A DNA stretch of 64,000 nucleotides. Origin: Minisyncoccota bacterium (GTDB lineage: Bacteria; Patescibacteriota; Minisyncoccia; Phycocordibacterales; UBA918). A model generated the notes under the pieces. It did no database searches. It was given only the letters and a program-made list of their open reading frames with translations, and had not been told where the DNA came from. Below are positions 2,429-58,784 of the stretch, piece after piece (the first letter of the stretch is position 1; the number at the start of each line of letters is the position of its first letter). Made by a program: the position numbers and the translations under genes. Location: the NCBI GenBank assembly GCA_041389045.1, contig JAWKSQ010000002.1:151898-215897 (forward strand), given 5' to 3'.

Positions 2429-3644
2429 TTAAAATGAATTGGTGAGATTATAGATAGGCATCAGCACAGAGGCTAACAGCACGCCTACTCCAAGGCCGAG
2501 CATGACAATCATTGCTGGTTCAATCAGACCAATTAAGGTATCAACGGCATTATTTACCTCACGACGATAGAAGTTAGCCAGGGTATTTAAAATTTCAGCC
2601 AAACTTCCTGTCTCTTCACCTACTCGAACCATTTGTGACAACACCCCAGGAATCTCTGGATATTCAGAGATTGCATCAGCAAAAGACTTTCCCCCACGTA
2701 CTTCAAGTAAGGCTGACTCAACAATCTCTCGATAAACGGTGTTATCTACCACGTCTGCCGTCACCTCAAGTGCTTGTACCATCGAAATACCGCTACTAAG
2801 CATCGTAGATAGGTTGTCACAAATACGGGTTAATAGAAGTTTTTTGTAAATCACCGATATAAGGGACAGAAATAATAAACTCATCAAAGGCTCTTTGTCC
2901 GACATCAGTTTTCTTAAAGCGCCAGAGTGCATATCCGCCGGCCGCGATACCAATCATCAACACACCAGCGTAATTAACCAAAAAATCAGATATAGCAATT
3001 ACTATTTTAGTATAAATTGGTAACTCTTGACCAGAGTCAGTCAAAATTTTAGCAATCTTAGGAATAACTAACGTAAGCATCAGCGCCATTACGCCAATGA
3101 AGATACTTATCACAAAGGCTGGATAAATCAGTGCACTTTTAGCCTTAGAGACAATCTCATACGATCGGTCCAAATAATCTGCCAAATAAGAAAAAGACTT
3201 CTCGAGTGAACCAGACTCTTCACCAGCACGCACGAGGTTTACATAAAAAGATGAAAAGGCGTCCGGATGACTAGCTAGTGCTCTGGAGATAGAGCTACCG
3301 CCCTGCAGATCTTCCACCACTTCATTCATGATTTTTTGTAGGCGTTCATTCTCAAGTTCAGCTGACAGTAATCTAAAAATACGCAGTGGTGAAACTCTGG
3401 CTTGAAACAGAGTAGATATCTGTCTCGATAGAATGACGATGTCTTTATTGGAGATTGAATTAAAAAGTGCAAATTCAATATTTAAAATACCATTAAGACC
3501 ACCTCCTTCTTCGATTGGGTCAATCGAAACCAGGGTGTAGCCACGTTTCTGTACGGCAGTAATAGCCGAGTCTACTGTCACGGCCTCAACAGTCCCTTCT
3601 TTTTGTGCATTCTCTTTGTCTAAAGCAACATATTTAAATAGCAT
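2429..3644 (-). pseudogene. pilC: type IV pilus platform protein PilC/GspF split into two ORFs
   Basis: ORFs 2817-3644 and 2429-2953 are the N- and C-halves of a GspF-family protein. Removing one base from the T6 run at 2840-2845 (A6 on the coding strand) joins ...IGDLQK to LLLTRICDNLSTMLSSGISM. Confidence 0.8.
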
Positions 3645-11070: not shown

Positions 11071-11110
11071 AGATTTTCTTTCTCCGCCAGCTGGCGGAGA
11101 AAGAAAATCT
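11071..11110. repeat. 40-bp perfect palindrome
   Basis: agattttctttctccgccag|ctggcggagaaagaaaatct has no spacer between the arms. Confidence 0.9.
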
Positions 11111-11193
11111 CATTCGCTTCGACCCCCACTCGCGTCGACCCAGAGGGACCCCGACACTCGGTTCGAATCTCACATCCCCGCGCTCGCACAAAC

Positions 11194-11228: not shown

Positions 11229-11315
11229 CGGAGGATGTGAGATTCGAACTCACGGGACCGGTTAGGGTCCGGCGGTTTAGTAAACCGCTGGTTTAAGCCA
11301 CTCACCCAATCCTCC
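11229..11315 (-). tRNA. type II (long variable arm) tRNA, Ser-like, with hand-folded anticodon ACU
   Basis: Acceptor GGAGGAT/ATCCTCC with discriminator G. T-arm GTGAG-TTCGAAT-CTCAC. Variable arm GGACC..GGTCC. Anticodon stem GCGGT/ACCGC with loop TTACTAA. CCA is not encoded. Confidence 0.7.
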
Positions 11316-20224: not shown

Positions 20225-20382
20225 CTCCTAATTCCCCTTATTTTAGATTGACGAACCAACTGACCAATCTAGTTATACAACATAATATTTGAATCTGTCA
20301 AATATTAAAAGCCCGGGTCTTAGCGTAAACGCCAGTGTTCCCGGACCTATTGTTCGACCAATAAGGTCGAATGTGCGTTGGC

Positions 20383-21399
20383 TTACTGCTTCCGCATCAC
20401 TTCCGTGACCGGCTCAATCTTGCCGGACGTAAGCTTGAACACAGCGAAGCGTCCTTCATCGCCCGCCTTGGGACACATTGCCAGCGTGCCACCGTTAAGG
20501 CCTTGATCACGAAGGGTACGGATACCGTCCATGCTACCAGCCATAACCACAGGTTGCACCTTTCCAGCAACCTTGATCAACTTCACGGAGAGATCATCGT
20601 TGCCCTTGTTGATCTTGTTGACGAGTGTCAGGTTCTCCTTGAAGACCCGACTGGGATGCGCCTGTTTCGGATTGCCACCCCCTTTCTTGACGACAATAAA
20701 GCATTCCTGAACCTCGCCCACTTCGCCGGTTTCGTCGTCGTAGGACGAGACCGAAACACAGTAGGTGCCATCCATGAGACACATCCATTCATCCCCGACA
20801 ACTGGCACGCCGTTTCGGGACTCACCATTCTTGGTGAAGACGTACTGCCTCGACCGTTTGAGGATCTTGGCTTGCCTGGCTTCGCGAGCAACACGAGCAG
20901 ACAGCTTTTTCGCCTTGCTGGTGTCAGAGGTATTCGACTTGGCCTTGGCCGGAGTAGTCACCAACTTCTGCTCCTCCCTGATCTGACTGACCCTCTGACA
21001 TTGAAGGTCAGACCAAATCGGTTGCAGACCATGTTCTTTGGCCAATTCCAACTTGAGCTGAATGATGTCGTCGAGCTCACGGCCGCCAAGGAACACACCC
21101 CCAATCTTAACCATCTTGGGAAGATCACGTACCGGGATCACATCGTACAACTCATGCCAGCAGCAGAGGCCGATGACGTACTCACCCTTATGCTCGAAGA
21201 GCTGGGCGAGCCCACGGAACCCCTTGTGGTCACGGGTGTAGCTCCAGAGCAGTTTACCGTCCTGATGAACGGAGGCCGGCAAATGCGGGTCATGATCCGG
21301 TCGCTGAAGCGACCGGATCATGTGAAGGACAAAACCCTCCCAGTCGCAAATCTCCACGTCAAATCCACGCTCCACTTTCTGTTCGATCAAATTCAGCAT
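20383..21399 (-). CDS. hypothetical two-domain protein (338 aa) with a Lys/Ala/Ser-rich linker
   Basis: An AGGAG SD precedes the ATG at 21399. A near-consensus promoter lies upstream. G/C-ending codons predominate in this frame. The mirror + ORF has neither an SD nor a promoter. Confidence 0.65.
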   Translation of the reverse strand: MLNLIEQKVERGFDVEICDWEGFVLHMIRSLQRPDHDPHLPASVHQDGKLLWSYTRDHKGFRGLAQLFEHKGEYVIGLCCWHELYDVIPVRDLPKMVKIGGVFLGGRELDDIIQLKLELAKEHGLQPIWSDLQCQRVSQIREEQKLVTTPAKAKSNTSDTSKAKKLSARVAREARQAKILKRSRQYVFTKNGESRNGVPVVGDEWMCLMDGTYCVSVSSYDDETGEVGEVQECFIVVKKGGGNPKQAHPSRVFKENLTLVNKINKGNDDLSVKLIKVAGKVQPVVMAGSMDGIRTLRDQGLNGGTLAMCPKAGDEGRFAVFKLTSGKIEPVTEVMRKQ

Positions 21400-21472
21400 T
21401 TGTTTCTCCTACTTAATTCCCCACAGAATTAAGGTACATTGTAAAGAAGGGTGTATGGGCACCACTTTTACT

Positions 21473-21501: not shown

Positions 21502-21557
21502 TGTATTTTACGCTTATTTATGGGCTTATTTTTCTCATTATTTGCTATGATTAGCTT

Positions 21558-23888
21558 ATGTCCCCTTCTGACTTACTAACTATTCACTTCCGCTTAGATG
21601 AACCTCATAAAAAGGCGCTAAAACGACTTAGTATCTTTACCGTTGAGGATTTACTACTCCACTTACCACAACGCTACGAGGACATTTCATCCATCCAATC
21701 AGTTGGTTCACTAACGAAAGACCAAGACGCAGTGGTGTTTGGTAAGCTAGGTGGTCTCAATACCCGCAAGAGCTGGAAGAGTCGCGTCCCTATTTCTGAA
21801 GGTTGGGTGGAAGACGGTACCGCCCGTATTAAAATCATGTGGTTCAACCAACCATACATAGCCAAAATGCTGACTGACGGCATGTACGTTAAAGTCGCTG
21901 GTAAAGTTACTGGTAGCGAGGACAAGCTTTACCTGGCGAACCCTGAAGTCGAAAAAGCTCGACAGCCTGCCGATTGACCGCCACGATTCCATCTTTAAAA
22001 ACACCGAACAATTAGATGAAACGATTTACCCCGTCTATCGAGAAACCAAGGGTGTCACCTCTAAGTGGTTCTTTCATAATGTGCAAAAATGCTTCTCGGC
22101 CGGGATTTTGGATAAACTTAAAGACCCAATACCGGAGGAAATTCTAAATCGCTACAACCTACCGACTCTAAAGACCGCCTTGCAGTGGATTCATACCCCG
22201 AAGAAAGCTGAGCACGCCGAAAGTGCGCGTAAGCGTTTTGCCTTTGAAGAAGTTTTTTATATCCAGACCACCAAAGCTAAAGAGCGAGCGCAAGTGAGTG
22301 TCGCTACTAGTTATCAATTCAATACCGATAAAGAACACATCAAGGCTTTCACGGAAAGGTTTCCTTTTGCCATGACCGGAGCGCAAACTAAGGCTCTCAC
22401 TGACATTCTCAAAGACTTCGGTGGTAAGCATCCGATGTCACGCTTACTTGAAGGTGACGTTGGTAGTGGTAAGACAGCAGTAGCGGCGTCCGCCGCCTAC
22501 GCGGTTGCTACTTCTCGTCCGCCAGAGGGGACTAAAGGGTCTACAAAAGACTTATTACAAAAAATAAATCCGCCAGTTTTGTGGACAGTTCGAGGCGCGG
22601 CCAAAATGACGGAGGAAATGTAGAAGACTACTTTGACGACGACACTTTTGAGTCGCAACAAAGAAATGTCCCAAAACTGGCGGATTTAGAGTTCGGAAAC
22701 TTGCAGGTAGCCTACATGGCCCCCACCGAAATTCTCGCCAAGCAACACTTCGAATCCTTCATCGAATATTTCAAACACCTCCCCATTCAAATTGGCCTGA
22801 TTACTGGTAGTGGTTGCATGAAATTCCCTTCTAAGACCAATCCCGAGAAACCGACTCCGATCTCACGCACTCAGCTACTAAAGTGGGTAAAGAATGGTGA
22901 GATACCAATTCTGATTGGTACCCACGCCCTCATCTATAAATCGGTTGAGTTTAAACATTTGGCTTTGGTGATTATTGATGAACAACATCGCTTCGGAACC
23001 GGACAAAGACGAGCCATCGCTAAGAAAGACACCAGAATGCCACACCTACTTTCGATGACTGCCACTCCTATCCCTCGCACCTTAGCCCTTACTGTCTATG
23101 GTGACTTGGACATTTCCCTGCTAGATGAGATGCCTAAAGGTCGCAAGCCTATCATTACTAAAGTAGTCGCCCCAAGTGGTATAGAAAAAGTCTACGACCA
23201 TTTGACAGAAGAACTAAAAGCTGGTCGCCAGGCTTTTGTCATCTGTCCACGGATCGATGAACCAGATCCGAGTAAAGAAAACGCTCTCCAACTAAAGTCA
23301 GTCAAGCAAGAAGCCGAGCGACTCAAGGCTAAAGTTTTTCAGTCAGCGCGCATTGATATTTTGCATAGCAAAATGAAGCCTGCCGAAAAAGAGCAAGTGA
23401 TGAAAAGATTTCTGGATCACGAGATAGATATTTTAGTTGCTACCTCGGTGGTAGAGGTTGGAGTCAATGTTCCCAACGCCACTAACATCATTATCGAAGG
23501 CGCGGAGAGATTTGGTCTGGCCCAACTACACCAACTACGGGGTCGGGTCATCCGTGGCACTCATCAAGCCTACTGCTTTGCCGTCACTTCCAAAGACACC
23601 ACCGGCAAAAGTGGTAAGACTTTAGAGAGACTCAAGGCCCTCACTACCGCCAAGAACGGTTTCGAACTAGCTGAATACGACCTAACTATCCGTGGCAGTG
23701 GCGAACTTTATGGTATGAAGCAGTGGGGTCTAACTGACCTCGGTATGGAAGCGATTAAGAATATCAAAATGGTCGAAGCTGCGCGCAAAGAAGCGAAAGA
23801 ATTAATCGCGCAAGACTTTGAATTAAAGCAATATCCGCTCATCGCGGGTAAAATAGCTCTCTTGAGCAAAGAACTTCATATGGAGTAA
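21558..23888 (+). pseudogene. recG: ATP-dependent DNA helicase RecG in three frames, with an extra segment after Walker A
   Basis: ORFs 21558-21977 (wedge domain), 22081-22623 (GDVGSGKT) and 22581-23888 (MAPTEILAKQH, IIDEQHRFG, helicase C) make up one gene. The first shift is at the A5 run 21952-21956. The second is inside the inserted segment at 22510-22690. Confidence 0.85.
22566..22687. repeat. 122-bp segment inside recG bounded by 15-bp perfect inverted repeats
   Basis: aaatccgccagtttt (22566-22580) and aaaactggcggattt (22673-22687). The recG stop and frame change lie between them. Confidence 0.7.
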
Positions 23889-23928
23889 TACGCAAATTAT
23901 AGCGGTTTCTTTACACACCCTATCTTAC

Positions 23929-23956
23929 TTGACGTATGTGTCTCTGGTGCTAATAT
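23929..23956 (+). promoter_or_regulatory. sigma70-like promoter
   Basis: TTGACG (23929-23934), a 16-nt spacer, then TGcTAATAT (-10 at 23951-23956). Confidence 0.5.
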
Positions 23957-23962
23957 CATACA

Positions 23963-24150
23963 TGACTGGTGCCGGTGGTCTGCCAAAGCCACATCACAAC
24001 CGTTGCCCAATGGACAGCGCTCCACCTGGCCCAGTCAAACTTTCACAAAGTGTGAAAAGTTCTTTACCGCTACAGTTTAATTACAGTAGCCCCTCGCGCC
24101 GGTGACGCGTCACCATTTTTGAAAGCCTCGACATTTGTCTGGGCTTTTTT
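23963..24150 (+). ncRNA. candidate small RNA of unknown class (about 190 nt)
   Basis: Runs from the promoter above to two tandem terminators (ggtgacgcgtcacc+T5 at 24101-24120 and agcctcgac..gtctgggct+T6 at 24124-24150). It has internal hairpins and no ORF. Confidence 0.3.
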
Positions 24151-24269
24151 GCATTAATTTTCCAACTCTAGTTGCATTAAAATTAACTTTAGGTACGATA
24201 AAAAAGTGACGTCCCGGCTTAAAAGACTTTTGACCGGATTGCTCTTTTCACCACATTGGAGATGGACAA

Positions 24270-24731
24270 ATGTTTGATCAATCAAAACTAACCCCTGGCC
24301 TCGAAGAGTGCTTGATGTTGGCCTACATTGAGGCAAAGCTTGAGCGAAGGAAGGAATTATCGACTGAGCAAGTTTTACTCATGCTACTTGAAAACACACA
24401 AGTAGTAACGATATTGAACAAATTCAACATCAACATCAGGACCTTGCGAGCTGGTCTGACAAACCACATCAATGCAAACGAACCCATACTGGATGGTGAC
24501 AATGAAGTCAATCCTGAGGCTTCCACTAGTATGACGAGGATCTGTCGACACACTCTTACGTTAAGGTTTTTCAAAAGTGCAGAGAAAGAACCAATTTCTG
24601 AGTCAGACTTTATCTTGTCACTCGTAACAGACGACACGACAGTCGCGTCACAATTACTTGCAACTCAAGGAATGGACCTAGACAAGCTACTTTATGAACT
24701 AGTTTTAGGATCAGACAACAAACGTTTCTAA
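24270..24731 (+). CDS. stand-alone Clp N-terminal (Clp_R) repeat-domain protein
   Basis: LEECLMLAYIEAKLERRKELSTEQVLLMLLEN and a second repeat ...ESDFILSLVTDDTTVASQLL resemble the ClpA/B/C N-domain. GGAGA SD. Confidence 0.6.
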   Translation: MFDQSKLTPGLEECLMLAYIEAKLERRKELSTEQVLLMLLENTQVVTILNKFNINIRTLRAGLTNHINANEPILDGDNEVNPEASTSMTRICRHTLTLRFFKSAEKEPISESDFILSLVTDDTTVASQLLATQGMDLDKLLYELVLGSDNKRF

Positions 24732-24807
24732 ATATGGCTCCCAGCCCCGATTTGGCTCCGCCAAATCGGGGCTAAATCATGCCAAATTTGACCACATCCA
24801 AAAACGC

Positions 24808-24836
24808 TTGACAATAGTTAGGTACTGTGCTATTGT
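24808..24836 (+). promoter_or_regulatory. near-consensus promoter
   Basis: TTGACA (24808-24813), a 17-nt spacer, then TGcTATTGT (-10 at 24831-24836). Confidence 0.55.
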
Positions 24837-24844
24837 AATTATCT

Positions 24845-25304
24845 TGCACTGCTGAAGCATCCGTTTCAGATCACAGATTGGCAAGTGTGTCCCAACTAGG
24901 AGTTGCCCAAATGACAGATCCCCCCAAGCACGGATTCAAGGAGTTCAAATTTTCGTTTTCGGCCATGCGCATTTCCGTTTCCTCGCTGGGCGCCGGCGGC
25001 CACTGACCGGTGCTGGTGGCTGGTCTAGGCTCTCGCGGGCTCGAGTTCAAGTTTTTGCCCGCGCCGCCCTGCCGGACCAGCCGTTCTTTGCCACACTATG
25101 TGTGGCGTAACCGAGCCGGGTTGGCACCGCCGCCAACCCGCTCAGAATCAAGGAGAACGTCCATGACTTGGCGAAGTTAAAAGTTCATCTTGCGGAGAGT
25201 ACGACACGGCGCAGTCGTACGAGGTTAGCCCCGAAAAGCCCCACTGCAGCTAACCAAACTGACCATCACAAACCTTCGGGTAAGTGATGGTCTTTTTCTT
25301 TTTG
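24845..25304 (+). ncRNA. candidate approx. 460-nt highly structured GC-rich RNA of unknown class
   Basis: Bounded by the promoter above and a strong terminator (gaccatcac..ttcg..gtgatggtc plus T-run, 25261-25304). It has many GC helices, for example gagccgggttggc/gccaacccgctc, gtacgac/gtcgtac and ccacac/gtgtgg. The only ORFs are tiny SD-led ones (24911-25006 of 31 codons, 25163-25180 of 5 codons). Confidence 0.35.
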
Positions 25305-26280: not shown

Positions 26281-26456
26281 TTAAGAAGCGGAGCGACTAT
26301 AATTCACTTATGCGGAGTATACAAAAACAAGGAGTGTAGCAACATGTTTTTAATGCGATAGTTTCCGAATATATAGTCGCTTCGCTTCTTAAAAACTAGG
26401 TCCACCACAAGAGTATTTCCGTTTTTATAGTCGCTTCGCTTCTTAAAAACTAGGTC
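26281..26456. repeat. inverted plus tandem repeat set upstream of the efflux operon
   Basis: ttaagaagcggagcgactata (26281-26301) is the inverted partner, with 1 mismatch, of tatagtcgcttcgcttcttaaaaactaggtc. That 31-nt sequence occurs twice (26372-26402 and 26426-26456). An SD-led 5-codon ORF (26344-26361, MFLMR) lies between them. Confidence 0.8.
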
Positions 26457-37835: not shown

Positions 37836-37949
37836 CCAGTAAGCCCGACGAGGAAGTCCCTGCAACTTCACACTCGCAGGGCTTTTTTCTTTTTATACTA
37901 CTAAACATCTTACTTAGAAGCTTGACCCTACAATTTCCATCGCAAAATT

Positions 37950-37987
37950 AAATACCACAATTAATTATGTAATTAATTGTGGTATTT
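37950..37987. repeat. palindromic element, copy 1
   Basis: aaataccacaattaatta-tg-taattaattgtggtattt is an 18-bp perfect stem followed by a T-run. Confidence 0.85.
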
Positions 37988-38075
37988 ATTTTTTAGTTTA
38001 TGTTCCCAAACCATAGAAATCTCCTGCAGAATAAGTTATTCTTAACAGTGAACTTTATTAATTTACATAACTAGT

Positions 38076-39146: not shown

Positions 39147-39449
39147 ATGCTCGTATAAATGTGACGGCTGACAAGCTTACCTGTACAGTTACCAAACACT
39201 TGCTACACTACTCATATGAAAAAGCGACTAGAGAAAGCTTCACCCAGCAAAACCAAAATGAAACTGGTGTAACCACACCGGCTCAGCAAATTTGCGTGAC
39301 CGACTAAATAAACTTAAAGCCGGCGGGCACGGAGTAAGTGGCGCTAGTACTCGTAGCAACTTCACCACCAATGTACATAACCGCTTTAAAAATACCCCAC
39401 CAGAAACATCTCCCAAAATCCCGAAAAGGTCTCCGCCCCGGATAAAAAT

Positions 39450-39487
39450 AAATACCACAATTGATTTCGAAATTAATTGTGGTATTT
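39450..39487. repeat. palindromic element, copy 2
   Basis: aaataccacaattgatttc|gaaattaattgtggtattt has the same outer arms as copy 1. Its left end is exactly 1500 nt from the left end of copy 1. Confidence 0.85.
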
Positions 39488-40095
39488 ATTTTATCCGGAA
39501 CAACTCAGCATAGACAAATTAATATTAATATTGTATTGTTCCTGAAACAGTATCACTCCTATTTACGAGGTGCAACCTGCAATAGAACGCATGGAGATTC
39601 TTACCACCTCGTTGGAAGGTGTTTTGCTCTTGGAGTTCATTCAAAAAGACGCTTGGCCTTTGTTCGAGCTCATAAAAGCAATAACCGTAACCACTTAGTC
39701 ATCATGGTGATGAGACTGCTTCCAAGTATCCTGACTTCACGTCAGTTTTACGTAGCATCACTCACCCTGTAGACCCCGACAAACTTCGGTTTGGCATTTG
39801 GTCAGACAGTGTACTTGCAGGAACTATCAACATCACTCCAACCGAAGACCTTTCACAAAGGAAATTGGCTGGCCAAGTTGGTGCGGAATTCTGTGGCCGA
39901 GTCTCGCAACAATTGCCACACAACGAATCATAAATTTCGGTCGCAACAAAACGCAGCAATTAATCAAATGGTTGCGAACGCAAATATCGAAAACCCGCTA
40001 GCCAAAGGGTTCTCTAAAAGCTGGTATGTCACAAACCCGACGTAACGACACAATAGTGTGGTTCGCTGTCGATACGTAACATGAGGAGTAACCTA

Positions 40096-57373: not shown

Positions 57374-57511
57374 GGTTTAGTAACTTTAAAGTGTGATTTA
57401 GTTTCTTAAGCTACGAGGCGTGACTGAGTAAATTATTGAGCGGTACTTAGATGTACCGTGAAATCATTTACGATGGAAGCAACAAAGTAGATTAAGAAAC
57501 TAAACACACGA

Positions 57512-58784
57512 CTAGGAGTTGCGAAGCGATAGTTGCGCATCAACCCGCCTAATCAAATCCAGTACTACTGACACTACGATCAGTACTGCTGTTCCACCAA
57601 TCGCCAGAGCGGCAATACCGGTTGCTACTTGCATACCAATCGGCAGTACTGCGACCAGTCCAAGGAAGCCAGCGCCCACTAACGTCAGTCTGGTGATAAG
57701 GTTACCTAAATACTCTGAGGTGTGTCCACCTGGGCGAATACCTGGAATAAAGGCACCATTTCTCTGTAAATTCTTAGCAATCGCATCTGGGTCAAAAGTA
57801 ACCGCGGTATAGAAGAAGGTGAACAAGAATACTAGAACGAAGTAAACTCCACCGTAAAGTAGCTGATTAGCCATTAGTTCATTTACCTTCTCAGTTGCAC
57901 CCGCCACCCACGGCAAGTCAAAGGCCGTCAGGATATTGAGGACCATTTGTGGGAAGAGTAAAATAGACAGAGCGAAGATGATTGGAATAACCCCAGCTTG
58001 GTTAAGGCGCAGTGGTAAATATGATGAGCTACCACCATAATTAACCCCTCCTCGACTTTGTTTGGCGTAAGTAATCGGTACTGGTCTTTCTGCTTCAGTC
58101 ATTACTACTACCGCGTAAATAATCGCTAGAGCCACGAAAGCAAAACCGATGTACAGCGGAAGTTGTGTTTGGTCGAAAGAAAACAAGAGCTGACTGAGAG
58201 TTGACGGTAGAGTAGCTACGATACCAGCAAAGATGATAATAGACACACCATTACCAATACCGTATTCAGTCACTAATTCTCCAATCCACATCAAGAGAAT
58301 CGAACCAGCAACAATCAAGACCACGTTGACCATGAAGTCAAAGGTGGTTAATCCAGAGATGACTCCCTGACTCTTGAGTAGAGACAAGAAACCAAAACCT
58401 TGCAGGATAGCTAAAGGTAAAGTAAGGATACGTACCATACTGGGTAAACTTAGCCCGTCCCGCCTCACCTTCTTCGGTGTACATACTTTTGAGCTTTGGT
58501 GACATTACTGTCATCAACTGCATAATGATCGACGCCGTAATAAACGGACCAACTCCCAACATCACGAGTGATAGGTTTGATAAACCACCACCAGAAAAGA
58601 TATTGAGCAAACCAATGAATTGGTTATCGAGTAGAAATTGTTCTAGAACACTTGCATTTACTCCAGGAATTGGAATAGCTGCTAGTAGACGGAAAATAAC
58701 GAGGGCACCTAAAACAAACAGAACACGATTACGAATGGCTGGTTCAGTGAAGATAAGAGTTATTTTATGGAAGAATGTTTGCAT
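57512..58784 (-). pseudogene. secY: preprotein translocase SecY split in two frames, most likely a consensus error
   Basis: 58338-58784 gives the N-terminus (..EGEAGRAKFTQYG). 57512-58468 gives the rest (VRILTLPLAILQGFG...). Deleting one base near 58436-58437 joins them as KFTQYVRILTLPLA. Confidence 0.9.

What the first reader, a model, noticed from the sequence alone, without database searches (positions are those of the whole stretch)
22510..22694. Extra segment inside recG carrying 15-bp perfect terminal inverted repeats, whose removal restores the frame
Seen in the sequence: between Walker A (GDVGSGKT) and motif Ia (MAPTEILAKQH) this RecG has roughly 60 extra codons compared with the roughly 20-residue spacing I remember for E. 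coli RecG. Within the extra part, aaatccgccagtttt (22566-22580) and aaaactggcggattt (22673-22687) are perfect inverted repeats. The stop and frame change that split the gene lie between them. Deleting exactly 22566-22687 (122 nt) joins ...KDLLQKI to EFGNLQVAYMAPTE in frame. This has a 1-in-3 chance by luck. The core tccgccag recurs at 22518-22525 and in the 40-bp palindrome at 11071-11110. Inference: this is a miniature inverted-repeat element, or nested elements, inserted in recG. Alternatively it is a lineage-specific insertion peptide that happens to encode a hairpin. I could not identify a target-site duplication.
Basis: partly seen in the sequence, partly recalled or inferred. Interest (0 to 1): 0.55.

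Follow-up and report, generated by a model that had tools for sequence, protein, structure and literature searches.

The report
Translated hairpin repeat inside recG
The extra piece in this Saccharibacteria recG gene is a copy of a small mobile hairpin repeat that sits in frame and is translated as a loop of the helicase, it belongs to an uncatalogued repeat family found in many bacterial phyla, and the frameshift beside it looks like an assembly error.

Summary
The inverted repeat is real and is 17 nt long and perfect (22565-22581 / 22672-22688). The whole 124-nt segment folds into one long hairpin (z = -7.7).

It is a mobile-element copy, but it does not break the gene. Close Saccharibacteria RecG orthologs split into "empty" alleles (728 aa) and "filled" alleles (about 776 aa). 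The filled alleles carry the same segment in frame, and the two kinds are interleaved across the tree. In eight orthologs the outer helix is 96% paired, and 17 of its 25 pairs show compensatory double changes.

The 81-nt core (AGTTCRAGGCGYG...CAACRMAGAAAT) recurs in at least 119 loci. These come from Patescibacteria, Desulfobacterota, Clostridia, Bacillales, Bdellovibrionota and Bacteroidales. Most copies are intergenic, some genomes hold many, and copies are flanked by target-site duplications. No Rfam family matches. A second copy lies in the window at 57391-57509, and another sits in frame inside prmC of a Kaiserbacterium.

The recG frame breaks come from two 1-nt indels, an extra G at 21957 and one base missing at 22564/5. 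secY and pilC in the window are split in the same way, so these are probably assembly errors. That a 122-nt deletion restores the frame is coincidence.

Closest analogue: Rickettsia palindromic elements. The core's function and the transposase are unknown.

The parts
21558..21977 (+). recG piece 1 (wedge domain), ended early by a frameshift
   Evidence: Pfam RecG_wedge, E = 2.6e-18. 96% amino-acid identity to residues 1-133 of L001 RecG.
21957..21957 (+). Frameshift 1: an extra G after the A5 run
   Evidence: Window reads GAAAAAGCTCGAC. L001, L002 and L003 read GAAAAACTCGAC. Removing one base gives PEVEKLDSLPID.
21952..22623 (+). recG piece 2 (linker and Walker A GDVGSGKT), running into the element and stopping at TAG 22621-22623
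   Evidence: tblastn of L001 RecG residues 132-324 in frame 1, 95% identity. ORF list.
22564..22565 (+). Frameshift 2: one base missing between the A run and the left arm
   Evidence: Window reads CAAAAAA-TAAATCC. L002 reads CAAAAAGATAAATCA. L127-L130 also carry one more base. Adding one base gives a 776-aa RecG.
22530..22685 (+). Segment that replaces 13 nt of the empty allele (net +143 nt; +144 in intact orthologs)
   Evidence: blastn of L001 against the window: L001 7652-8640 matches 21540-22529, and L001 8654-10797 matches 22686-24849. Alignment. Orthologs are 728 aa or 776 aa.
22565..22581 (+). Left arm of the outer helix (TAAATCCGCCAGTTTTG)
   Evidence: 17/17 complementary to 22672-22688. 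Covaries with the right arm in 8 orthologs.
22583..22586 (+). P2 helix, 5' side (GGAC), pairing with 22668-22671 (GTCC)
   Evidence: Family-wide covariation at alignment columns 27/124 and 28/123: four pair types, 2 of 90 unpaired.
22587..22667 (+). Conserved 81-nt core, AGTTCGAGGCGCGG ... CAACAAAGAAAT
   Evidence: The pattern hits at least 119 genome loci. nhmmer E = 9.9e-13. No Rfam family matches.
22620..22631 (+). Apical hairpin GUAG-AAGA-CUAC; it holds the TAG that ends piece 2 in the shifted frame
   Evidence: Folds. The apical helix is 93.7% paired and all 6 of its pairs covary in 90 copies.
22672..22688 (+). Right arm of the outer helix (CAAAACTGGCGGATTTA)
22581..23888 (+). recG piece 3 (motif Ia to the C terminus); its first 36 codons are element sequence
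   Evidence: Pfam DEAD, Helicase_C and RecG_dom3_C. 95% amino-acid identity to L001 residues 327-728.
57391..57509 (+). Second, diverged copy of the same element. It is intergenic, right after a terminator hairpin and 3 nt from the 3' end of secY.
   Evidence: nhmmer E = 6.3e-4. Same architecture, with GCUAC...GUAG replacing AGUUC...GAAAU. Fold -50.7 kcal/mol, z = -5.3. 18-nt inverted repeat I24.

Best explanation
The segment is a copy of a non-autonomous, hairpin-shaped mobile repeat of about 125 nt. It consists of an outer helix, a short P2 helix, a sequence-conserved asymmetric internal loop, an inner helix and an apical hairpin.

It was inserted into the surface loop of Saccharibacteria RecG between the Walker A helix and motif Ia. 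One forward frame of the element has no stop codon, so it was tolerated and is translated as about 48 extra, mostly charged residues. This is the same kind of event as Rickettsia palindromic elements in protein genes.

The element's own nucleotide and structure constraints have kept the hairpin intact inside the ORF through compensatory changes. Protein function has not done this.

The two frame breaks in this window's recG are single-base indels unrelated to the element. They are most likely sequencing or assembly errors.

Shown:
- The insert is present in some alleles and absent from others.
- It is carried in frame in orthologs.
- The helices covary.
- A dispersed family exists, with target-site duplications.
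- Other essential genes in the window carry indels.

Inferred:
- Transposition is carried out in trans by a DDE-type transposase that was not found.
- The peptide is neutral for RecG.
- The conserved internal loop is a binding site for the transposase or a host factor, on the + strand as RNA or single-stranded DNA.
For: Alleles and frame
- L001, the closest relative (83% nt, 95-96% aa identity, syntenic), lacks the segment. L002 and six other orthologs carry it in frame.
- Of 120 close RecG proteins, 73 have a 6-aa linker and 36 carry an insert of 46 aa or more (one of them doubled), always in the frame ...SSRRG...QQRNVPKL....
- Filled and empty alleles are interleaved on the RecG tree. Linkers of 14-20 aa look like internal deletions of the element.

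Structure
- In eight orthologous copies, each 129 nt anchor to anchor, helix 1 is 96% paired and 17 of 25 pairs changed on both sides. 0 of 500 shuffles reach this, and slid controls give 28-41% pairing.
- In 90 non-redundant copies, P2, the pair 40/110 and the apical helix covary.
- G-U cells outnumber A-C cells 82 to 9 in the robust helices. This points to the + strand, which is the recG sense strand.

Dispersal
The hits include complete genomes and isolates: Wukongibacter, Pseudalkalibacillus, Brevibacillus and Aneurinibacillus.
- Most copies are intergenic.
- The window holds a second copy.
- L099 has a copy in the infC-rpmI spacer; no copy is detected at that place in the window, though the spacer is too diverged to align.
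- The element sits in frame inside prmC in L010, read in a different frame.

Mobility
- 14 of 14 Thermodesulfobacteriota-type copies are flanked by 5-7-bp direct repeats.
- 4 of 4 'TAGGAC'-type copies are flanked by 5-bp repeats. Mismatched-flank controls reach 5 bp in 7% (thermo-type set) and 0% (TAGGAC-type set) of trials.
- Clostridia-type copies duplicate a 19-25-nt terminator hairpin.

Nucleotide-level conservation
- The invariant residues of the peptide (RR, V, Y) are coded by the core motifs GAGGCGYG, GUA and UAC. These motifs are equally conserved in non-coding copies.

Indels
- secY is split (Pfam SecY positions 1-50 and 43-305 on two ORFs) and so is pilC/T2SSF, while 13 syntenic genes are intact.
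- All three recG pieces keep 95-96% amino-acid identity to L001 at 83% nt identity.
Against: - No target-site duplication can be read at the recG copy.
- No autonomous element or transposase with matching ends was found. No protein family recurs near the copies.
- In classic MITEs the termini are conserved and the interior is free. Here it is the reverse: the core is conserved across phyla and the arms differ, even among Saccharibacteria copies. This suggests a function beyond being a transposase substrate.
- The many filled/empty switches at one codon position need one of three things: a strong insertion hotspot, recurrent clean loss, or recombination between lineages. None was demonstrated. 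A plain excision between 5-bp duplications (129 nt) does not give the 144-nt length difference.
- The error explanation for the indels is indirect, because no reads were available. Two indels in one gene is more than the window average.
Confidence: 0.78

Rival explanations
1. One reading: the element is a recent disruptive insertion that inactivates recG, and precise excision of the 122-nt IR-to-IR unit would restore the gene.
For: Deleting 22566-22687 gives an open 736-aa frame. The stop that ends piece 2 lies inside the element.
Against: Intact orthologs read straight through the same element in frame. The window differs from them by one missing base outside the arms. A second frameshift, at 21957, is 600 nt away from the element. 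The difference from the empty allele is 143/144 nt, not 122.
Confidence: 0.03
2. recG is a genuine, very recent pseudogene in this genome. Both indels are real, and the element is an older in-frame passenger.
For: There are two independent indels in one non-essential gene. 13 neighbouring genes are intact.
Against: The essential secY and pilC carry the same kind of 1-nt indel. All recG pieces keep 95-96% amino-acid identity to L001 at 83% nt identity, so there is no sign of relaxed constraint.
Confidence: 0.12
3. The segment is a host-selected RecG loop: a lineage-specific peptide with a function in the helicase. The hairpin is a by-product.
For: The insert is kept in frame in 36 of 120 orthologs. 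A few residues are invariant (RR, V, Y).
Against: The closest relatives do without it. The invariant residues map onto nucleotide motifs that are conserved in intergenic copies, and in a copy read in another frame in prmC. Arm codons change amino acid while keeping base pairing: A/A, L/S and V/T pairs.
Confidence: 0.04
4. The conserved core is a functional structured RNA that rides on a mobile hairpin: an sRNA gene or a cis-acting RNA module. Copies, including the one in recG mRNA, persist because the RNA does something for the host or for the element. This does not exclude the best explanation. It is a different answer to why the core is conserved.
For: - The core sequence is conserved across phyla, with covarying helices and conserved asymmetric loops.
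- G-U outnumbers A-C 82 to 9.
- Clostridia-type copies have a TTGACA-containing 5' extension and end at an intrinsic terminator in the same orientation.
- Saccharibacteria copies each have different arms that still pair.
Against: - There are no expression data.
- The promoter scan did not call a promoter in the 5' extension.
- Most intergenic copies are antisense to both neighbouring genes: 31 against 11 in a crude ORF-based count. They would therefore need their own promoter.
- No Rfam family matches.
Confidence: 0.3
5. The arm complementarity in recG orthologs is kept by a mutational mechanism rather than by selection. Candidates are template switching within quasi-palindromes, or repeated re-insertion or gene conversion from other copies.
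For: - The arms are perfect or near-perfect despite 15-25% flanking divergence.
- Filled and empty alleles are interleaved, and two sequence subtypes are interleaved as well.
- L004 carries tandem partial copies at the same site.
Against: Template switching would also erase the asymmetric internal loops, and these are the best-conserved part. The arms of the orthologous copies resemble one another (AAAKC...TTT) more than they resemble other Saccharibacteria copies.
Confidence: 0.2

Closest known systems
Rickettsia palindromic elements (RPE; Ogata et al. 2000, cited from my own knowledge)
   Same: Palindromic repeats of 100-150 nt, dispersed in the genome. They are able to sit in frame inside conserved protein genes, where they are translated as an extra surface segment. 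Orthologs differ in whether they carry the element.
   Different: The organisms differ (CPR and many other phyla rather than Rickettsiales). Sequence similarity to RPEs was not tested. Here a core is conserved across phyla with asymmetric loops, target-site duplications are seen, and most copies are intergenic.
Bacterial MITEs (Correia/NEMIS, RUP, ERIC, bcr1, Nezha; review PMC2229807, seen and not read)
   Same: Small size, terminal inverted repeats, target-site duplications, many copies per genome, no coding capacity, and frequent placement next to terminators or gene ends.
   Different: In MITEs the termini are the conserved part and match a parent IS. Here the interior is conserved from Patescibacteria to Bacillales while the arms vary. 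No parent IS was found. The duplication length differs by subfamily: 5 bp, about 6 bp and 19-25 nt.
IS1202-family insertion sequences (bioRxiv 10.1101/2022.12.17.520857)
   Same: One family with three classes of direct-repeat length, 5-6, 16-17 and 27-28 bp. This is reminiscent of the 5, 6 and 19-25 nt seen here.
   Different: IS1202-family ends start with TGT. The ends here read TAGGAC, (T)GAYGG or (T)CAGATTG. No IS1202-type transposase was seen near any copy. This is a lead, not a test.
Structured non-coding RNA families in Rfam 15
   Same: Covarying helices, conserved internal loops and a G-U bias on one strand.
   Different: None of the 4227 families matches the window copy at E up to 10, 18 loci at gathering score or 8 loci at E up to 5.

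Membership tests
MITE (miniature inverted-repeat transposable element) | Short (under about 300 bp) and without a transposase gene | tested here: met
   124 nt IR to IR in recG. Other subfamilies are 124-125, 151 and 152 nt. Only short ORFs lie across copies.
MITE (miniature inverted-repeat transposable element) | Terminal inverted repeats | tested here: met
   17/17 in recG. Thermodesulfobacteriota type: GAYGGYYTCGTAAAAAGTC at both ends.
MITE (miniature inverted-repeat transposable element) | Target-site duplication flanking each copy | tested here: inconclusive
   Met in related subfamilies: 14/14 with 5-7 bp, 4/4 with 5 bp, against 7% and 0% of mismatched-flank controls reaching 5 bp. Not readable at the recG copy or at 57391-57509.
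MITE (miniature inverted-repeat transposable element) | Several copies in one genome, and empty sites in relatives | tested here: met
   Two copies in this 64-kb window. At least 12 loci from one Thermodesulfobacteriota MAG and at least 5 in Wukongibacter sp. M2B1. Empty recG allele in L001. L099 has a copy in the infC-rpmI spacer and none is detected there in the window.
MITE (miniature inverted-repeat transposable element) | A parent autonomous IS with the same ends | tested here: not met
   No recurrent neighbouring protein among 912 ORFs within 2.5 kb of the copies. Only 8-kb windows around the copies were examined, so a parent elsewhere in these genomes is not excluded.
Rickettsia palindromic elements | Palindromic repeat inserted in frame in conserved ORFs and translated | tested here: met
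   RecG and PrmC. Translation is inferred from intact ORFs, not observed.
Rickettsia palindromic elements | Sequence homology to the RPE-1 to RPE-8 consensus sequences | not tested
   No RPE sequences were at hand. The taxa differ, so I claim 'works like', not membership.
Self-splicing intron or intein | Ribozyme core (group I or II), or intein splice-junction residues and blocks | tested here: not met
   No intron family in Rfam at E up to 10. The insert starts ...QK(N)KSASF and ends ...KLADLE/FGN, with no Cys/Ser/Thr ... His-Asn junctions. Orthologs keep it open in frame.
Intragenic invertible segment (inverton) | Inversion between the inverted repeats gives an alternative open frame | tested here: not met
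   Inversion keeps the length, so it cannot join frame 0 to frame 2. Orthologs all carry the same orientation.
IS1202-family derivative | 5'-TGT termini and direct repeats of 5-6, 16-17 or 27-28 bp | tested here: not met
   The repeat lengths are roughly compatible, but the termini are not TGT.

The most novel reading that the evidence does not exclude
The family is a so far undescribed mobile structured nucleic-acid element shared by distant bacterial phyla. Its conserved asymmetric core is a G-UUCRAGG-C T-loop-like stretch facing CAACRMAGAAAU. Under this reading the core is a functional RNA, or a folded single strand, that is recognised by a universally conserved host factor or that takes part in the element's own mobility. 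It would be, for example, a mobile sRNA gene that borrows host terminators by duplicating them, rather than a passive MITE. The recG and prmC copies would then be structured RNA modules embedded in mRNAs.
Probability: 0.3. Interest if true: 0.8.

Novelty: new variant of a known kind. Interest (0 to 1): 0.62.

Why it matters
- It extends the 'selfish DNA inside protein genes' phenomenon, known from Rickettsia, to the ultra-small Saccharibacteria and other CPR bacteria. In these reduced genomes every insertion is notable.
- It gives a natural series of empty, filled, partly deleted and doubled recG alleles. This series can be used to study how palindromic elements enter and leave essential-gene loops.
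- It exposes a repeat family whose interior is conserved, with covariation, from Patescibacteria to Bacillales and Desulfobacterota, and which is absent from Rfam 15, 2.9 million viral contigs, plasmids and phage records. That pattern is not what passive MITEs show, and it may mark a new mobile RNA or ssDNA module.
- In practice, annotation pipelines will call such recG genes 'frameshifted' or 'interrupted'. Here the interruption is an artefact beside a real, translated insertion.

Tried and rejected
- Rfam scans found nothing at the element. I scanned the whole window at gathering score, the recG region at E up to 10, 18 loci at gathering score and 8 loci at E up to 5.
- Other copies of the 15-mer arm or of the 181-nt segment in the window, by pattern search, blastn and tblastn: none. 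Only a profile (nhmmer) found the second copy.
- A profile of the insert peptide against 1.84 billion representative proteins gave only 6 weak hits to short ORFs. This led to the non-recG copies.
- blastn against plasmids and phages found nothing. A pattern scan of viral contigs found nothing.
- Full-text searches for the core sequence returned only PCNA primers. Keyword searches for IS1182, for MITEs at terminators and for CPR MITEs found no description of this element.
- Looking for a transposase or any recurrent neighbouring gene found none.
- Aligning the L099 filled site to the window's infC-rpmI spacer to read the insertion boundaries failed, because the spacer is too diverged.
- Other long-loop hairpins in the window (26281-26446, 54502-54596, 51686-51774) have no core motifs.
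- Rejected ideas: an inversion switch, an intron or intein, ribosomal bypass, and transcriptional slippage. Orthologs keep the ORF open through the element, and the A runs are only 5-6 nt long.
Full report
**What is in the window**

recG runs on the + strand from 21558 to 23888 and is in three pieces. These are the wedge domain (21558-21977), the linker with Walker A (about 21952-22623), and motif Ia to the C terminus (22581-23888). The outer pieces share one frame and the middle piece uses another.

The reported inverted repeat exists and is longer than stated. TAAATCCGCCAGTTTTG (22565-22581) pairs 17/17 with CAAAACTGGCGGATTTA (22672-22688), with 90 nt between them. By my own arithmetic, about 6e-4 such repeats are expected by chance in 64 kb. 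The 124 nt fold as one long imperfect hairpin at -60.3 kcal/mol, with z = -7.7 against shuffles. Deleting 22566-22687 does give an open 736-aa frame.

**Organism**

A 4.3-kb contig of an uncultured Candidatus Saccharibacteria MAG (L099) is syntenic with window 46.1-51.3 kb at 69-74% nucleotide identity. Two further loci, one of them Saccharibacteria and one labelled only 'bacterium', match other parts of the window. The window is therefore from a Saccharibacteria (TM7, Patescibacteria) genome.

**The insert is polymorphic and in frame in relatives**

I searched with a repaired RecG and took the best 120 relatives (73-89% identity).
- 73 have a 6-residue linker at this point (...SRPPEG-LASKLQ-FGNLQVAYMAPTE), mostly in 728-aa proteins.
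- 36 carry an insert of 46 aa or more, one of them doubled. It is always read in the frame ...K-KS-x-SF-x-DSSRRG......V.-Y-D....QQRNVPKL-x-DLE, giving proteins of 768-780 aa or a little more.
- A few have linkers of 14-23 aa that look like internal deletions. P0102 keeps SSRKG. P0061, P0090 and P0117 keep only the right arm, K-L/V-S/A-D/A-LE.

The closest relative, L001, is syntenic over 20 kb, 83% identical in recG DNA and 95-96% identical in protein. It has the empty site. Window 22530-22685 replaces 13 nt of L001, a net +143 nt. L002 carries the insert in frame (+144 nt).

On a neighbour-joining tree of RecG with the insert columns removed, filled and empty alleles are interleaved, with roughly a dozen filled/empty sister pairs. 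Two sequence subtypes of the insert are interleaved too.

Against the T. maritima RecG structure 1GM5, the insert falls between chain residues 409 and 416. This is the loop after the Walker A helix and before motif Ia.

**The frame breaks are separate single-base indels**

At 21957 the window has GAAAAAGCTCGAC, where L001, L002 and L003 have GAAAAACTCGAC. At 22564/5 it has CAAAAAA-TAAATCC, where L002 has CAAAAAGATAAATCA, and L127-L130 also have one more base. Repairing both gives a 776-aa RecG.

The second indel lies just outside the left arm. The TAG that stops the shifted frame (22621-22623) is the GUAG of the apical stem.

Elsewhere in the window, secY is split into two overlapping ORFs (57512-58468 and 58338-58784; Pfam SecY positions 43-305 and 1-50). 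The pilC-type T2SSF gene is split as well (2429-2953 and 2817-3644), each by a 1-nt shift. The 13 other genes shared with L001 are intact. An essential gene cannot be a pseudogene, and all recG pieces are still 95-96% identical in protein to L001. I therefore read these indels as assembly errors, and the 122-nt frame restoration as coincidence (1 in 3).

**The hairpin is maintained inside the ORF**

I fetched recG DNA for seven in-frame filled orthologs that carry a single copy (L002, L003, L005, L127-L130). With the window copy, all eight elements are exactly 129 nt between anchors and fold alike. The arms differ between orthologs: AAATCCGCCAGTTTT, AAATCACTCAATTTT, AGCGCCGCAAATTTT, AAAGCTGCTAGTTTA, AAATCTGCCAAATTG and others. 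They stay complementary.

Helix 1 is 96% paired, and 17 of its 25 pairs changed on both sides. No shuffle out of 500 reaches the observed covariation. Sliding the partner by 1-3 columns gives 28-41% pairing against 90.7% for the whole structure.

At the protein level this appears as coupled residues in the two arms: A with A, L with S, V with T. The invariant residues of the peptide (RR, V, Y) are coded by nucleotide motifs that are just as conserved in non-coding copies. The constraint is therefore on the nucleic acid and not on RecG.

**It belongs to a large dispersed family**

A profile of the insert peptide against 1.84 billion representative proteins gave only six weak hits. All were short ORFs lying across non-recG copies. 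From these copies and the recG copies I derived the pattern AGTTCNMGGCGYG-N46-66-CAACRMAGAAAT.

The hits come from:
- Patescibacteria: Kaiser-, Taylor-, Yanofsky-, Zambryski- and Uhrbacteria, Paceibacterota and many Saccharibacteria.
- Thermodesulfobacteriota and Desulfobacterales, with at least 12 loci from one MAG.
- Clostridia, including complete Wukongibacter chromosomes with several copies.
- Bacillales isolates: Brevibacillus, Aneurinibacillus ATCC 12856, Fictibacillus, Scopulibacillus and Pseudalkalibacillus.
- Bdellovibrionales and Bacteriovoracaceae, Bacteroidales, Elusimicrobium and Gammaproteobacteria.

There were no matches in 2.9 million viral contigs, in PLSDB plasmids or in phage records. 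No Rfam 15 family matches, even at relaxed thresholds.

Most copies are intergenic. In a crude ORF-based count they often abut the stop codon of a gene on the opposite strand. An nhmmer profile finds a second, diverged copy in the window at 57391-57509, between a terminator and the 3' end of secY. In that copy GCUAC...GUAG replaces AGUUC...GAAAU, which is a compensatory change in an otherwise invariant helix. L099 has a copy in the infC-rpmI spacer, and no copy is detected at that place in the window; the spacer is too diverged to align the boundaries. In a Kaiserbacteria MAG (L010) the element sits in frame inside prmC, in a different reading frame, and splits the PrmC profile match in two.

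**Architecture and strand**

In 90 non-redundant copies (alignment A2) the layout runs as follows:
1. An outer helix of 15-30 bp, specific to each subfamily. The register shifts between subfamilies, so ungapped pairing is only 50-60%.
2. P2, with four pair types at two columns and only 2 of 90 cells unpaired.
3. A sequence-invariant asymmetric loop, A-G-U-U-C-N-M-G-G-C-G-Y facing R-C-A-A-C-N-N-A-G-A-A-A-U. The pair Y40/R110 covaries (C-G in 65 copies, U-A in 21).
4. A variable inner helix.
5. An apical hairpin that is 93.7% paired, with all six pairs covarying.

In the well-aligned helices, G-U-type cells outnumber A-C-type cells 82 to 9. The folded strand is therefore the one given, which in recG is the sense strand. 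Two columns contribute most of this bias, so it is suggestive rather than decisive.

**Evidence of transposition**

- Thermodesulfobacteriota subfamily (151 nt): 14 of 14 copies are flanked by 5-7-bp A/T-rich direct repeats, against 7% of mismatched-flank controls reaching 5 bp. The ends are inverted repeats, GAYGGYYTCGTAAAAAGTC. The left side holds an extra inner copy of the arm.
- 'TAGGAC...GTCCTA' subfamily of Parcubacteria and Bdellovibrionota (124-125 nt): 4 of 4 copies have 5-bp duplications.
- Clostridia subfamily (152 nt): the whole target hairpin, 19-25 nt long, is duplicated. It is an intrinsic terminator, and the downstream copy plus its T run lies in the orientation of the element's + strand.

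No transposase or other recurrent gene lies within 2.5 kb of the copies. The IS1202 family is a precedent for one family with direct repeats of 5-6, 16-17 and 27-28 bp. Its TGT termini do not match these ends.

**Interpretation**

The finding is a real mobile-element copy, but it works like a Rickettsia palindromic element and not like a gene-killing insertion. It landed in a tolerant surface loop in the one forward frame without stops and is carried as about 48 extra residues.

Three things remain unexplained:
1. Why the interior is conserved across phyla while the arms drift, which is the reverse of ordinary MITEs.
2. What keeps the hairpin intact in orthologous copies. The candidates are selection on an RNA or ssDNA function, template-switch correction, and re-insertion or conversion.
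3. How filled and empty alleles became so interleaved at one codon position. The 144-nt difference is not explained by a simple 124 + 5-nt unit. A short conserved YTTGMAAAAA stretch just 5' of the left arm may be part of the element, as in the subfamilies that have a 5' extension.

**Comparison and novelty**

By function and behaviour the closest known things are RPEs and bacterial MITEs. I file this under neither by membership. Homology to RPEs was not tested. The MITE criterion of a parent IS with matching ends was not met in the sequence I examined.

I found no description of the family in Rfam 15 or in the searchable literature. It may still exist under a name I could not search for.

I rate it a new variant of a known kind, with interest 0.62. 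If the core proves to be a functional mobile RNA, the interest would be higher.

Noticed in passing
window 57512-58784 (- strand): secY is split into two overlapping ORFs by a 1-nt shift near 58400 (...QYG|TYPYF against ...VRILTLPLAILQGFGF). An essential gene is broken, so this is most likely an assembly indel.
   Followed up: partly
window 2429-3644 (- strand): The pilC/gspF-type gene, with two T2SSF domains, is split into two overlapping ORFs by a frameshift near 2850-2880, next to an A6 run.
   Followed up: partly
window 20371-21432: About 1.1 kb between the 142-aa gene and recG is absent from the syntenic locus L001. It has long ORFs open on both strands (353 aa on + and 338 aa on -), higher G+C (0.49) and no Pfam hit. 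It may be an inserted gene of unknown kind.
   Followed up: partly
RecG orthologs P0008, P0018, P0071, P0091, P0099 (after query residue 493, between motif II DEQH and motif III): Some Saccharibacteria RecG proteins carry a 118-153-aa PD-(D/E)XK 'GxxExxY' domain (PF13366) inserted in frame. This is independent of whether the hairpin insert is present. It is a second, different insertion in the same gene.
   Followed up: partly
L004 1004-1420 (P0017, 821 aa): One ortholog has two truncated left halves plus one complete copy of the element in tandem at the recG site, still in frame. The right arm of the complete copy pairs best with the left arm of the second partial copy.
   Followed up: partly
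L010 2137-2273 (Kaiserbacteria MAG JANPCG01): The same element lies in frame inside prmC (release-factor glutamine methyltransferase), just before the NPPY motif, and is read in a different frame from the one used in RecG.
   Followed up: yes
L099 3596-3694 against window 50689-50770: A Saccharibacteria relative has a copy of the element directly upstream of rpmI, in the infC-rpmI spacer. No copy is detected in the window's spacer, which is too diverged to align.
   Followed up: partly
L028, L034, L054, L065, L084, L088, L112, L121, L123 (Clostridia subfamily): Each copy is flanked by a direct duplication of a whole 19-25-nt intrinsic-terminator hairpin. This is an unusually long, structure-defined target duplication. 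In L036 the flanks are inverted rather than direct copies.
   Followed up: partly
window 11071-11110: A perfect 40-nt palindrome (AGATTTTCTTTCTCCGCCAG/CTGGCGGAGAAAGAAAATCT) lies near the tRNA-Ser genes. It shares TCCGCCAG with the recG arm by chance. Nearby, 11161-11177 pairs with 11233-11249, a tRNA T-arm-like GTTCGAATC sequence that suggests a tRNA fragment.
   Followed up: no
window 26281-26446, 54502-54596, 51686-51774: Three other intergenic hairpins have 22-30-nt arms and loops of 29-122 nt. The first holds a 30-nt direct repeat (TATAGTCGCTTCGCTTCTTAAAAACTAGGTC). None has the core motifs of the recG element.
   Followed up: partly
window 37944-37993 and 39445-39492: Two near-identical 24-nt-arm palindromes (AAAATWAATACCACAATTRATT...) lie 1.5 kb apart. 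They are a separate small repeat family.
   Followed up: no
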